Below, piece by piece: positions 1 through 3,000 of a stretch of DNA of 7,356 nucleotides. The DNA comes from a virus (taxonomy: Duplodnaviria > Heunggongvirae > Uroviricota > Caudoviricetes): IMG/VR virus record IMGVR_UViG_2778261453_000014. One strand, given 5' to 3'. The position numbers are program-made. Position 1 is the first letter of the stretch; each line of letters begins with the position of its first letter.

Positions 1-3000
1 CAGACATTCTGCCACGTGATCATGTAGCATAAGTGACCTCCGATTATCTACAGACTGCCATCCTGAATTTACCTTCCCTTAATGAAATAACAATAAAAAA
101 CAAACCACGCAAAAACAATAAAATAACACACAAAAAAAACTAAATAATAAACAAAAATAATCACCTTATTTTATTATTTTTTGAGGGGGCAATTACTGAA
201 CAAAAAACGCTGACTATATACTCAAAACCAAACAACTATTCTGCCAATCAGGTATCATGGCAACACACGGAATTACCGTGTTTTTGCCTTCTCTGCCCAT
301 ACAATACGGGCATATACTTCATACTCTATTGTAATATTTCTATCCATGCGCCCCACTCCATTTACCTGTAAATAATATTCAAAATATTTATCACAGAAAT
401 CGTTTTTGGCCATGAACTGAGCACACTATAAAGTCCGGAACTGACTCTTTGTTAAATTACCTTAACGTTACCAGTAACACCTTCATAACAAAACATCACG
501 GTATACACTGGGTACGGATATATTCCTGTGCTCCTTCCAGTTGCTTCTGCATTGCCATCAGCCGTTCTCTGAGGATGAAATAATCCCGTTCAGCGGTGTC
601 TGCCAGTCGGGGGCCGGTTGCATTATCCACGCCGGAGGTGCCGGTGGCTTCACGCACGGTACCGGAGCAGGTGGCGTTGATCCGCAGGCGCTTACGACCA
701 GCGGCAACATCAGCACGCAGAGTTTCATTTTCAGCTCTCGCATCGGCTAATTCCCTCGAGTATCTGGCATCAAGTGCAGCGACATCACGCTGGCGTACCT
801 GCATATCAGTAATTGTCACGTTCGCCAGCTTCAGCTCACTGGCTTTTTTATCGCGTTGCGCTTTGTAGGTAATGGCGTTATCGCGGTAATGATTCAGCCC
901 CAGACTAAGCACACCACAGGCTACCAGCAGGACAATAATCACCACACACAGAACACGGTTCATATCCCCCTCACCCCACCAGCCATGACAAAGTTAAGAC
1001 GCGCCAGGCAGTGGAAAAGCAAATAGCAACCAGCATTAGTGAAAATGAAATGCCGACGATTACACAGAGGATCTTCGCCAGCGTTATGAGCTTGTCTGAC
1101 ATGCTTAATCCTCTTCACGATTTCAACGCAATGACCAGTTTTGCCAGCCCATACAGCATCGGAGACACAGCAATACCGACCGCCACCCACTTAATAGCAA
1201 AAGCCAGCGCTCTGCTGACGTCATCAGTTACAGGCGCTTTCAGTTCAAGGCCGTTTTTCATAGTCAATCTCAACAGAATTCGTTTATACTTTCCCATGTT
1301 CTCCCTTGCCTTACTCAAGGTCAGAAACACAAAACCCCGTTTGCGGCCAACAAACGGGGTTTTACTTTTATTCACTTAGTTTTTGCCAGTTCGCAGGATT
1401 TCGTGTTATCCGCCCGCGTTGGCCAACGTCATTTTTCAGCAAAATATTCTGCTTATCTGTCAATTCCCCAGCACGCCAGTGCACTTTCCTGGTCTCGCCG
1501 GGATACCTGACCGTAGCAATTATTTGAGCGGATACGGCAGTCTCTGCCACCGTCCTTAATCCACCAGCGAATCGCTTCGCAGGCACCTTTTCGATCACCT
1601 GCATTAATCCGTCTGTAAAACGTAGACGGGAAACACTTACCGGGGCCAATGTTATAAGGACAAAATGACGCGATACCCGCCTTCTGGGGTTCGGTCAGCG
1701 GTACTTTAATATTGCGCTCCACCCACTCCAGCGCCTTATCACGTTCAATGGCGTTAACCTGGTCGCACTTTTCCTTCGATAACTTCATACCCGGGACGAC
1801 AGGCTTACCATCCACTCGGGTGGCACCGCGGCATATGGTCCAGATCCCCGCACCATCACGGTATGCCGTGGTGTGGTTACCTTCTTTTTCGTCAAGAAAC
1901 TGGTCGAGGATTTCAGGCGCAGACGTCCCTGCACCAATCAGCGCCAGAACGGCAGCCGACAGGCCGTATCTGATTTTTGCGTTCATGGATATTTATCAGG
2001 ATTTATCGGTTCCGGCCCCCTGGATATGTTAAGTCTTCAGCCCGCCGGTGGTGGGCACTGGCGTAAACCCAACAATGTGAGATGGCTGCCTCGCAAAGAT
2101 AATGAACAGATATGAATGAAGAAAATACAGCGCTTTTTGACAGAATTTTCACTCTTGAGTTACAGGTCGGTTTTCTTCTCCCAAAGATAATCAAAGCCAT
2201 GGATGCACTTGGTAAGAATAACGCTGTGTCAGATTACCTGATCGCCGAAATGGAACATCTCATTAAAGAAATACCAAAGACCGATGCTCGTGATGATAAA
2301 AGATTCCTCAGGGCTGCTGAAAATGCTCTTTCGACCGTGAAGCGCAGCTTAGACGCGCCGCAAGATCAAGAATAGTTTCTTTCATTTCGTCTAATGCAAG
2401 TACCTCATCTTTTGTTGGGGTGCTTTTTTCAATTCAGAGATATAGCACTCCAGTTGTTCAATACGTGATTCAATATCATCTTTTTCTGACCGCAATGCCG
2501 TCGGTGGCGTCTTCAGAGAACCAGTAATTCTTCCCGGTAGCTTTCCTCTGTAGGTTATCAACACGTCCTGCGCCTCTAAAATGATGGGCCGCTTTTCCGG
2601 CAACGGACCATCCCCTTCACATAACCCGGCAGCAACATCCATGAAAAACTGCTTCGCCTGCTTTTCGCCTCAGCTTCGTAAAACTCCAGCGTGGCTCCTT
2701 CAGTACGGTCAAGACTAATCGCCACATCTGGCAACAACAGTGACGGATACCCACCAATTTCCGGTGCCACAGTAACAGTAATCTTATCCGGGTAATTATT
2801 TATCCCTTTAACAACCAGTTCGTATTTTTTCTTCATCGCTTTACTCTCCCCGCGCCGCCTTACGACGGTCCTCTCTGATTTTGAAATACAGGTTAGAAGG
2901 GCCGACCTGTGGCTCTCCTTCAATAGCCACCGCCTGCATCAGTGTGTACGGCGTAATGGCAACCGGTCCGCCGTATGGCTGCCAGCCCTCTTTCAGTTTG

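What the first reader, a model, noticed from the sequence alone, without database searches (positions are those of the whole stretch)
971..1297. Two unannotated small membrane-protein ORFs between the SAR endolysin and Rz/Rz1
Canonical phage 21 / Qin cassettes place Rz directly after R. Here about 490 bp separate them and encode two tandem small ORFs, each with a textbook Shine-Dalgarno: a 60-aa protein with a basic N-terminus and C-terminal TM anchor (1115..1297) and a 43-aa single-TM protein (971..1102; too short for the ORF track). A perfect 13-bp hairpin (1331-1363) precedes them. Because the canonical pinholin upstream appears destroyed, these could be a replacement holin/antiholin, a lysis-timing regulator, or a small membrane toxin or exclusion cargo.
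Basis: partly seen in the sequence, partly recalled or inferred. Interest (0 to 1): 0.6.

Follow-up and report, generated by a model that had tools for sequence, protein, structure and literature searches.

The report
Small membrane genes inside lysis cassette
Two tiny membrane-protein genes between the cell-wall-degrading enzyme and the outer-membrane-disrupting genes of an E. coli prophage are real and widespread, are already catalogued as hypothetical proteins, travel with their own upstream terminator hairpin, and do not replace the missing holin; their function is still unknown.

Summary
On the minus strand, a 60-aa ORF (1115..1297) and a 43-aa ORF (971..1102) fill the 489-bp gap between the lysozyme R (1453..1986) and Rz/Rz1 (496..963). 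A 13-bp terminator hairpin (1331-1363) precedes them. Both are real genes. All 39 and 31 distinct DNA variants stay open, and pN/pS is 0.26 and 0.36. They are not unannotated: RefSeq lists them as hypothetical proteins, and they match PHROG families of unknown function. About 18% of complete E. coli genomes carry the segment. The 43-aa gene also sits just upstream of Rz in 276 phage records, mostly Stx phages. The pinholin in this window is destroyed, but 98 of 106 related loci keep an intact one, so the pair is not a holin replacement. New findings: the hairpin travels with the 60-aa gene family across unrelated neighbourhoods. That gene has a conserved internal start (Met13) with its own ribosome-binding site, suggesting 60- and 48-aa isoforms. 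The module follows three unrelated endolysin types. Diverged relatives lie after capsid or tail-fibre genes. Best reading: late-expressed accessory inner-membrane proteins that probably modulate lysis. This function is inferred, not shown.

The parts
1453..1986 (-). Lysozyme R (177 aa) with a weakly hydrophobic SAR-like N-terminus; upstream neighbour of the module
   Evidence: PF00959 at E 1.9e-25. N-terminal stretch 9-27 has KD 1.54. Annotated as lysozyme in RefSeq.
1331..1363 (-). Intrinsic-terminator hairpin (13 bp, loop 7) with an A-tract before it and a U-tract after it. It is the first element of the ORF60 gene unit and looks terminator-like on both strands.
   Evidence: It travels with ORF60 across five or more different upstream contexts, with stem changes that keep pairing. 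It is found only upstream of ORF60-family genes in the loci examined. Remote homologues have different hairpins at the same place.
1298..1330 (-). 33-nt leader carrying the Shine-Dalgarno sequence AAGGGAGA for Met1. In the predicted fold it pairs partly with the terminator's U-tract.
   Evidence: Sequence, fold, conservation across variants.
1115..1297 (-). ORF60: a 60-aa protein with a basic N-terminal helix, a short acidic juxtamembrane patch and a C-terminal weakly hydrophobic TM (tail-anchored, N-in). WP_001303555.1.
   Evidence: pN/pS 0.26, open in 39 of 39 variants. Matches phrog_1115/4493/3246. AF2 helices 3-14 and 24-59. Hydropathy.
1259..1271 (-). Conserved internal start: Met13 ATG (1261..1259) preceded by GAGA (1271..1268). 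This would give a 48-aa isoform.
   Evidence: Met13 is nearly invariant. An SD-like GAGG/GAGA/GGAGG lies 5-6 nt upstream in all family members examined that keep this Met, even where the residues differ. Many databases call the 48-aa form.
971..1102 (-). ORF43: a 43-aa bitopic membrane protein (N-in, strongly hydrophobic TM 11-29, roughly 14-aa periplasmic tail). Its stop lies 7 nt before the Rz ATG, and the Rz Shine-Dalgarno sequence lies in its last codons. WP_001280929.1.
   Evidence: pN/pS 0.36, open in 31 of 31 variants. Matches phrog_4906. The gap to Rz is 2 or 7 nt in 72 of 76 loci. Present in 276 phage records.
496..963 (-). Rz i-spanin (155 aa) with embedded Rz1 o-spanin (558..743); downstream neighbours, probably translationally coupled to ORF43
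   Evidence: PF03245 at E 6e-49 and PF06085 at E 1.7e-21.
1261..1290 (+). Sigma-70-like site TAGTCA-18-TATACT, antisense inside ORF60 codons 3-12 and pointing at the hairpin. A speculative promoter for a roughly 75-nt antisense RNA.
   Evidence: It is the only promoter-like site in 400..2500 (2.3 expected by chance). The same site is present in L098 and L083. It is not kept in L087.
2844..2897 (-). Remnant of the S21-like pinholin (residues 51-68 only), fused to the 3' end of a DUF1737 ORF (2841..3068)
   Evidence: tblastn of the PhiR12_3 holin against the window. RefSeq marks the DUF1737 and YdfR genes here as partial.

Best explanation
ORF60 and ORF43 are two genuine small inner-membrane proteins. 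They form a mobile accessory module of the phage late operon, inserted here at the junction of R and Rz.

Shown:
- Both are under purifying selection.
- The ORF60 gene unit consists of an intrinsic-terminator hairpin, a leader of about 33 nt with a ribosome-binding site, and the ORF.
- No sigma-70-like promoter lies on the coding strand.
- The module follows three unrelated endolysin types.
- It coexists with intact holins.

Inferred:
- The genes are silent in the lysogen, because any ordinary transcript stops at the hairpin.
- They are made only when Q-modified polymerase reads through, so they appear together with R and Rz/Rz1.
- ORF60 is translated from Met1 and from the conserved internal Met13. 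The 60- and 48-aa isoforms differ by a basic amphipathic helix.
- ORF60 is tail-anchored with its small charged domain in the cytoplasm.
- ORF43 spans the membrane once and is translationally coupled to Rz.

Most likely function (inferred, not shown): they modulate the last step of infection. They could tune when the membrane depolarises or the holin triggers, or how the membrane-tethered endolysin is released. This would act through the membrane rather than through one particular holin. They would be dispensable tuners, not the holin itself.
For: Real genes:
- pN/pS is 0.26 and 0.36, with no stops in 39 and 31 variants.
- The protein alignments show conserved motifs.
- The segment is in 965 of 5426 complete E. 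coli genomes.

Late, promoterless, terminator-gated:
- No promoter-like site lies on the minus strand in 400..2500.
- The hairpin is kept in every context, with stem changes that keep pairing. Many variants have G.U wobbles that favour the coding-strand RNA.
- Remote homologues have unrelated hairpins at the same position.

Link to lysis. The module lies directly after three kinds of endolysin:
- R21-type SAR lysozyme (about 100 loci);
- GH108/PG_binding_3 endolysin with Phage_holin_8 and Phage_holin_3_7 (about 40 loci);
- a 161-aa Salmonella lysozyme with a Phage_holin_2_3 holin.

ORF43 is the constant gene just upstream of Rz in 276 phage records, mostly Stx phages.

Dual start: the internal Met and its SD-like motif are conserved even where the residues differ.

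Membrane topology.

Accessory rather than replacement: 98 of 106 loci have an intact pinholin. Propagated phages carry the pair together with holin S.

Precedents for small membrane-tethered lysis modulators: Mu gp25 releasin (PMC9239132) and BSPM4 ORF52 (PMC11657625).
Against: - No homology to any characterised lysis protein. Pfam, NCBIfam and PADLOC give nothing at E up to 1, and the PDB gives no significant match.
- Diverged family members lie after tail-fibre genes or the capsid gene, not in lysis cassettes. This fits generic late-operon cargo.
- The same R-Rz slot holds an antirepressor in Stx phages. It is therefore a general insertion site.
- Association with three different holin families argues against a classical holin-specific antiholin.
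- Arrays of 1-4 shuffled mini-TM genes suggest diversifying cargo.
- No expression data were found.
Confidence: 0.4

Rival explanations
1. Late-operon cargo unrelated to lysis. The small membrane proteins would act during late infection or in the lysogen. Possible roles are superinfection exclusion, blocking DNA entry or a host membrane defence, or another host-membrane modulation. The R-Rz junction would simply be a tolerated insertion slot.
For: - Diverged homologues sit after tail-fibre assembly genes at prophage ends (L085-L087, L169).
- One sits after the major capsid gene, in an array of five tiny TM genes (L170).
- The slot holds ant in Stx phages.
- The slot holds variable arrays of 3-4 chimeric mini-TM genes in other prophages.
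- K-12 Qin has nothing there.
Against: - There is no promoter of its own, and a terminator lies directly upstream. Known conversion or exclusion morons are expressed from the prophage.
- The module sits repeatedly next to three unrelated endolysins.
- ORF43 is tightly coupled to Rz.
- There is no PADLOC match.
Confidence: 0.3
2. ORF60 is a membrane-active toxin kept silent in the lysogen by two locks: the upstream terminator, and a short cis-antisense RNA. The RNA would start at the promoter-like site inside codons 3-12 (plus strand 1261-1290). It would end at the same hairpin acting as a bidirectional terminator, and it would cover the ORF60 ribosome-binding site. The layout resembles type I toxin-antitoxin pairs or P22 sar/ant (comparison from memory).
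For: - The only sigma-70-like site in 2.1 kb is this one, correctly oriented about 40 nt from the hairpin. It is likewise the only one in 3.1 kb of L098, and it is present in Salmonella L083.
- The A-tract upstream of the hairpin is kept in all contexts, including remote homologues.
- Codons 3-18 have very low synonymous diversity.
- An AAT (Asn) variant of codon 3 turns the -10 element into TATAAT.
- ORF60 is small, cationic and membrane-anchored.
Against: - The site is weak (9 of 12 matches, 18-nt spacer), and such sites are not enriched (1 found, 2.3 expected).
- Its presence in relatives follows from plain sequence identity.
- It is not kept in L087.
- In most R21-type variants the antisense hairpin is 3-7 kcal/mol weaker than the sense one.
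- There is no Rfam match.
- The low synonymous diversity is also explained by the internal ribosome-binding site and by protein-level conservation of the N-terminal extension in remote homologues.
- ORF60 has no promoter of its own, unlike type I toxins.
Confidence: 0.1
3. One reading: the pair replaces the destroyed pinholin, acting as the holin or antiholin for the SAR endolysin in this prophage.
For: - The pinholin is reduced to residues 51-68 here.
- ORF60 has a weakly hydrophobic TM and a likely dual start, which are holin-like traits.
- Mu shows that a SAR endolysin can work with a non-holin helper (PMC9239132).
Against: - 98 of 106 related loci keep an intact pinholin next to the same pair.
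- Propagated phages have both.
- Only eight loci, including this window's type, lack a holin match. This prophage is a decayed remnant with IS2 and partial genes.
- There is no Pfam holin match.
Confidence: 0.05
4. The ORFs are chance open frames in a non-coding spacer.
For: - They are very short.
- The opposite strand also has long stop-free stretches.
- The mirrored antisense frame of ORF43 has a similar pN/pS of 0.39.
Against: - Frames stay open in all variants, with the lowest pN/pS in the called frames.
- Starts, ribosome-binding sites and stop positions are conserved.
- Protein-level conservation reaches 54-67% identity in Salmonella and metagenomes.
- The antisense ORF is broken in some variants.
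Confidence: 0.02

Closest known systems
PHROG families phrog_1115 / phrog_4493 / phrog_3246 (ORF60) and phrog_4906 (ORF43); RefSeq WP_001303555.1 and WP_001280929.1
   Same: Direct sequence membership, with E-values of 7e-42 to 7e-19 and 7e-24. The window proteins are identical to the RefSeq entries.
   Different: These families have no assigned function, so membership names the proteins but explains nothing.
Dual-start holin/antiholin genes (lambda S105/S107, phage 21 S68/S71)
   Same: A small membrane protein encoded next to the endolysin in the late operon. It has two in-frame starts, the longer product carries extra positive charge at the N-terminus, and an RNA structure lies just upstream of the first start. 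The holin properties are from established knowledge.
   Different: The starts are 12 codons apart, each with its own ribosome-binding site, rather than 2-3 codons apart. There is a single C-terminal TM instead of 2-3 TMs with a charged C-terminus. There is no Pfam holin match. The gene coexists with a bona fide holin in 98 of 106 loci and with three different holin families.
Mu gp25 releasin (DUF2730, PF10805)
   Same: A small membrane-tethered cytoplasmic protein encoded in a lysis region beside a SAR endolysin. Its family also occurs with cytoplasmic endolysins (PMC9239132). ORF60 likewise follows both SAR-type and GH108 endolysins.
   Different: gp25 is 99 aa with an N-terminal TM (N-out, C-in) and an anionic 73-aa domain. 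ORF60 is 60 aa with a C-terminal TM and a cationic domain. There is no DUF2730 match.
Salmonella phage BSPM4 ORF52 (64-aa single-TM holin modulator)
   Same: A roughly 60-aa single-TM phage protein with no known homologues. It localises to the membrane, is toxic when overexpressed and delays holin-dependent lysis (PMC11657625). It is a working precedent for the proposed role.
   Different: ORF52 has an N-terminal TM. No sequence similarity to the window proteins was tested or implied.
Lambdoid morons (bor, lom; Juhala et al. 2000 definition, from memory and as cited in PMC4104026)
   Same: Extra genes present in some relatives and absent from others, at a junction between conserved late genes.
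   Different: Classical morons carry their own promoter and a downstream terminator and are expressed in the lysogen. Here no promoter is detected, and the terminator is upstream.
Type I toxin-antitoxin loci and P22 sar/ant antisense control
   Same: A small hydrophobic protein, with a possible short antisense RNA covering its ribosome-binding site and ending at a bidirectional terminator.
   Different: The antisense promoter is only a weak consensus match. There is no Rfam family. The toxin gene has no promoter of its own. Toxicity is untested.

Membership tests
PHROG phrog_1115/4493 (ORF60) and phrog_4906 (ORF43) | Significant profile match over the full length | tested here: met
   ORF60 matches at E 6.6e-42 and 3.6e-29. 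ORF43 matches at E 7.3e-24.
Holin (functional class) | Small protein with at least one TM, encoded next to the endolysin in the late operon | tested here: met
   TM predictions. Adjacency to three endolysin types.
Holin (functional class) | Match to a curated holin family | tested here: not met
   No Pfam or NCBIfam hit at E up to 1. The PHROG hits carry no lysis label.
Holin (functional class) | Is the holin of its cassette, with no other holin present | tested here: not met
   98 of 106 loci have an intact S21-like pinholin. The other cassettes have PF16931 plus PF05449, or PF16080, holins.
Holin (functional class) | Dual-start motif | tested here: inconclusive
   Internal Met13 with an SD-like motif is conserved across the family. 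Use of both starts is not shown.
Holin (functional class) | Timed lethal membrane permeabilisation, triggered early by energy poisons | not testable with these tools
   Needs expression experiments.
Mu releasin, DUF2730 (PF10805) | DUF2730 profile match and N-terminal TM with N-out, C-in topology | tested here: not met
   No Pfam hit. The ORF60 TM is C-terminal. Family features are from PMC9239132.
Mu releasin, DUF2730 (PF10805) | Promotes release of a SAR endolysin from the membrane | not testable with these tools
   Needs co-expression of R with ORF60 or ORF43.
Moron (promoter-gene-terminator cassette) | Extra gene between genes that are adjacent in related phages | tested here: met
   Qin has R and Rz overlapping. 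Stx phages have ant at the same place.
Moron (promoter-gene-terminator cassette) | Own sigma-70 promoter upstream and terminator downstream | tested here: not met
   No coding-strand promoter-like site in 400..2500. The terminator is upstream of the gene.
Type I toxin-antitoxin | Small hydrophobic toxin of about 60 aa or fewer | tested here: met
   60 and 43 aa, each with one TM. Toxicity itself is untested.
Type I toxin-antitoxin | Antisense RNA gene overlapping the toxin's translation start | tested here: inconclusive
   Promoter-like site plus bidirectional terminator. The site is weak, is not conserved in L087, and has no Rfam match.
Two-component spanin (ORF43 as i-spanin) | Periplasmic domain long enough to reach an outer-membrane lipoprotein partner; Rz-type profile | tested here: not met
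   The periplasmic tail is about 14 residues. There is no Pfam hit. Canonical Rz/Rz1 follow directly.

The most novel reading that the evidence does not exclude
The ORF60 family may be a new class of terminator-gated, dual-start, tail-anchored membrane proteins that regulate lysis independently of holin type. One possibility is that the 60- and 48-aa isoforms act as inhibitor and effector. The mode of action could be like an antiholin or a releasin. A cis-antisense RNA might add a second lock in the lysogen. ORF43 would be an overlooked constant component of the Stx-phage lysis cassette, translationally coupled to Rz, that influences lysis timing and hence toxin release.
Probability: 0.15. Interest if true: 0.7.

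Novelty: new member of a known kind. Interest (0 to 1): 0.4.

Why it matters
Lysis timing sets phage burst size. In Shiga-toxin phages it also sets how and when toxin leaves the cell. ORF43 lies directly upstream of Rz in 276 sequenced phage records, mostly Stx phages and including Stx2a phages. It is left out of many of their annotations. The ORF60/ORF43 pair is in about one in six complete E. coli genomes. Neither has a known function. If they tune holin triggering or endolysin release, they would add a component to one of the best-studied lysis systems, and they would be a target for altering toxin release. If they do not, they are one more pair of conserved hypothetical prophage genes. For this window itself the result is sobering. 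The pair does not compensate for the lost holin, and the prophage is a decayed remnant.

Tried and rejected
1. Family searches against Pfam, NCBIfam and PADLOC found nothing for either protein at E up to 1. PDB sequence profiles found nothing meaningful.

2. An exhaustive profile search of 1.84 billion representative proteins found only 24 clusters, all small proteins of the same family. There was no link to a characterised family.

3. The AlphaFold model of ORF60 is two helices. I did not run fold searches on it, because a single long helix gives meaningless matches.

4. The genome-contig scan found no relatives. The species representatives evidently lack the module.

5. Literature searches found no paper for the accession numbers or peptide strings. 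There was nothing in the supplements of the Sakai ribosome-profiling paper or the EDL933 TSS paper. The Stx-phage lysis-cassette survey does not mention the small ORFs.

6. I followed a lead that the Hfq-bound sRNAs EcOnc10/11/12 might be the predicted antisense RNA (PMC4104026, Table S2). EcOnc11 maps downstream of Rz in Sakai Sp10 and has no homology to the window. This was a dead end. I read only part of Table S2.

7. The spanin role for ORF43 is rejected because its periplasmic tail is too short.

8. The replacement-holin idea is rejected because of co-occurrence with intact holins.

9. Codon-level tests cannot separate ORF43 from its mirrored antisense frame. The sense frame is preferred because of its ribosome-binding site, its conserved start, its stop 2-7 nt before Rz, and its operon orientation.
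Full report
**What is in the window**

The window is a decayed lambdoid prophage of pathogenic E. coli. It is 100% identical over the region to many STEC/EPEC chromosomes, for example NZ_CP027591. The late operon runs on the minus strand in this order:
- antiterminator Q (annotated at window 4539..5228; the longest ORF call is 4539..5312)
- several cargo genes
- a partial DUF1737 ORF (2841..3068)
- a partial YdfR-family pseudogene (about 2576..2834)
- lysozyme R (1453..1986, PF00959)
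- a 60-aa ORF (1115..1297)
- a 43-aa ORF (971..1102)
- Rz (496..963, PF03245) with embedded Rz1 (558..743, PF06085)

The R-Rz gap is 489 bp. Both small ORFs have Shine-Dalgarno sequences. A 13-bp hairpin at 1331-1363 lies 33 nt before the first ATG. In K-12 Qin, rzpQ overlaps the end of rrrQ with nothing between them.

**Are they genes?**

I collected 165 related loci, mostly from viral contigs, plus some genome and metagenome contigs.
- ORF60 has 39 distinct DNA variants and ORF43 has 31. All are open, with conserved starts.
- Pooled pN/pS is 0.26 (ORF60) and 0.36 (ORF43) in the called frames, against 0.5-4.7 in the other frames.
- The only frame that rivals a called frame is the mirrored antisense frame of ORF43, at 0.39. 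That frame is broken in some variants and has no translation signals.
- Protein alignments show invariant and near-invariant positions and drift elsewhere.

**Are they unannotated or new?**

No. RefSeq annotates both as hypothetical proteins, WP_001303555.1 and WP_001280929.1.
- Each exact sequence occurs on at least 996 contigs.
- They belong to PHROG families of unknown function.
- 965 of 5426 complete E. coli genomes hold at least 80% of the 601-bp segment.
- Pfam, NCBIfam, PADLOC and the PDB give nothing.
- A profile search of 1.84 billion representatives finds only 24 small clusters of the same family.
- I found no paper on them.

**The holin question**

In this window only residues 51-68 of an S21-like pinholin remain. 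However, 98 of 106 related loci with a complete R have an intact pinholin. Phages recorded as propagated on K-12 or E. coli C (PhiR12, PhiR5) have holin S, R, both small ORFs and Rz in a row. The pair is therefore an accessory, not a replacement.

**Contexts**

- A. Pinholin, R21-type lysozyme, hairpin, ORF60, ORF43, Rz/Rz1 (about 100 loci).
- B. Stx phages: R, a different terminator-like hairpin, antirepressor ant, an ORF43 homologue, Rz. tblastn finds ORF43 in 276 phage records, mostly Stx1 and Stx2 phages, often with no feature annotated. ORF60 is in only 14. In Sakai Sp10 the homologue is ECs_1966.
- C. About 40 loci with Phage_holin_8, Phage_holin_3_7 and a GH108/PG_binding_3 endolysin, then hairpin, ORF60, ORF43 and a 60-65-aa lipoprotein (phrog_7528), then terminase. 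No spanin was seen in the roughly 2.5-kb flanks.
- D. Salmonella: Phage_holin_2_3 holin, a 161-aa lysozyme, hairpin, ORF60, Rz, without ORF43.
- E. Diverged homologues (54-71% identity or less) after tail-fibre genes at prophage ends, or after the capsid gene in an array of five tiny TM genes.
- F. Other prophages fill the R-Rz gap with 3-4 shuffled mini-TM genes. These include chimeras that keep only the ORF60 TM.

**The hairpin belongs to the gene**

Homology to the window begins at the A-tract before the hairpin, whatever gene lies upstream.
- The stem changes while pairing is kept: CCCCGTTTG/CAAACGGGG, CCCCGATTG/CAGTCGGGG and CCCCGGCTG/CAGTCCGGGG. The innermost aligned pair takes six different pair types.
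- In the loci examined the motif occurs only upstream of ORF60-family genes.
- Three remote homologues have unrelated, strong hairpins with A- and U-tracts about 33-49 nt before their start codons.
- In many R21-type variants G.U wobbles make the coding-strand hairpin 3-7 kcal/mol more stable than its complement. It therefore works at least in the late transcript.
- No sigma-70-like site lies on the coding strand between R and Rz.

My inference is that ordinary transcripts stop 33 nt before ORF60. Only Q-modified polymerase would then express ORF60, ORF43 and Rz/Rz1.

**A second start**

Met13 of ORF60 is nearly invariant. An SD-like GAGG, GAGA or GGAGG lies 5-6 nt upstream of it in every member examined that keeps this Met. 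This holds even in Salmonella relatives, where the residues there are VEAN instead of LRLT. Several pipelines call the 48-aa form. The 12-residue extension is also conserved as protein in remote members (Tyr4, basic and hydrophobic pattern). Two isoforms, of 60 and 48 aa, are likely but unproven.

**The proteins**

- ORF60 is predicted to have a basic helix at 3-14, a loop, and one long helix at 24-59. Mean pLDDT is 74. Its TM (best window 38-56, KD 1.9) is weakly hydrophobic and rich in Gly and Ala, comparable to the pinholin TM2 and the R SAR-like segment. Only two residues follow the TM, so the protein is tail-anchored with its charged domain in the cytoplasm.
- ORF43 has a very hydrophobic TM (11-29, KD 2.86) and a short tail with invariant Trp33, Leu36 and Gly43. 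Its stop is 2 or 7 nt from the Rz ATG in 72 of 76 loci, and the Rz ribosome-binding site lies in its last codons.

**Interpretation**

The firm conclusions:
- These are two real, conserved, late-operon small membrane-protein genes.
- ORF60 is a mobile, terminator-fronted gene unit.
- ORF43 is a near-constant companion of Rz in this phage group.
- Neither replaces the holin.

Function is inferred. I favour a modulatory role in lysis (confidence 0.4) for four reasons:
- the module repeatedly follows three unrelated endolysins;
- it appears to be expressed only with the lysis genes;
- it has holin-like traits (weak TM, likely dual start);
- small membrane-tethered modulators have precedents: Mu releasin and BSPM4 ORF52.

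Association with three holin families argues for action through the membrane or the endolysin, not through a specific holin.

The main rival (0.3) is cargo unrelated to lysis. It is supported by relatives at capsid and tail-fibre moron sites and by the variable content of the slot.

A speculative rival (0.1) is an antisense-RNA lock. The only promoter-like site in 2.1 kb is antisense inside codons 3-12 and points at the hairpin. However, it is weak, such sites are not enriched, it is not kept in one diverged relative, and it has no Rfam or literature support.

**Verdict**

This is an ordinary-looking but real and under-studied accessory module. It is already catalogued as hypothetical proteins, is of moderate interest, and is directly testable.

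Noticed in passing
window 2841..3068 (-), especially 2844-2897: The 75-aa ORF is a fusion. It has a DUF1737-like N-terminus joined to the last 18 residues of an S21-like pinholin. A deletion therefore removed both holin TM segments.
   Followed up: yes
window 2576..2923 (-): A YdfR-family gene lies between the holin remnant and R. It appears disrupted, and RefSeq marks it as partial (missing C-terminus). The order holin, ydfR, lysozyme matches K-12 Qin (essQ, ydfR, rrrQ).
   Followed up: partly
window 2112..2375 (+), with terminator-like hairpin 2398-2425 (+): An 87-aa ORF on the opposite strand (phrog_18136, no Pfam hit) sits directly upstream of R and is followed by its own terminator-like hairpin. 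It looks like a reverse-oriented moron inserted between ydfR and R.
   Followed up: partly
window 3152..3356 (-): Match to the Rfam sRNA family STnc100 at 41.4 bits, below the gathering score of 47 (E 1.6e-6). It ends in a strong terminator, upstream of the DUF1737 ORF.
   Followed up: no
window 4463..4532 (-): A terminator hairpin with a long U-tract lies just downstream of the Q gene. It gives a weak STnc240-like match (28 bits, well below the threshold of 55). The position fits the tR' terminator of a pR'-tR' late-promoter unit.
   Followed up: no
window 5702..6661 (+): A lipid A deacylase LpxR-family gene (319 aa) lies on the opposite strand between a truncated phosphatase gene and Q. It is a probable host-modifying cargo gene.
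   Followed up: no
L098 2841-3023 and equivalents in about 40 loci (L096-L131): A 60-65-aa lipoprotein (phrog_7528, lipobox LVGC, three Cys in the mature part) follows ORF43. It sits in cassettes with two holins and a GH108 endolysin where no Rz/Rz1-type spanin was seen. It may be an unrecognised outer-membrane lysis component.
   Followed up: partly
L137 2040-2750; L167 (ON470597) 600-1180: In some prophages the R-Rz gap holds arrays of 3-4 tiny TM genes. These include 28-aa peptides ending in IRWW that are just the ORF60-family TM, and chimeras with new N-termini. In L137 a TTGACA...TATAAT-like sequence follows the hairpin.
   Followed up: partly
L166 (AB255436, Stx2 phage 86) about 2095-2245: An ORF43 homologue (MISDKLITLAKILCVIVGISFLVMLV...) lies between ant and rz and has no annotated feature. 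The same holds in many other Stx-phage records.
   Followed up: yes
window 1364..1452 (-), and the same stretch in L166, L167, L137 and L083: The roughly 90-nt non-coding stretch between the R stop and the hairpin is conserved. The motif GGCGGATAACAC(G/A)AAATCC persists even in the Salmonella locus, where the lysozyme is only 35% identical to the window R. There it forms a small hairpin. Its role is unknown.
   Followed up: no
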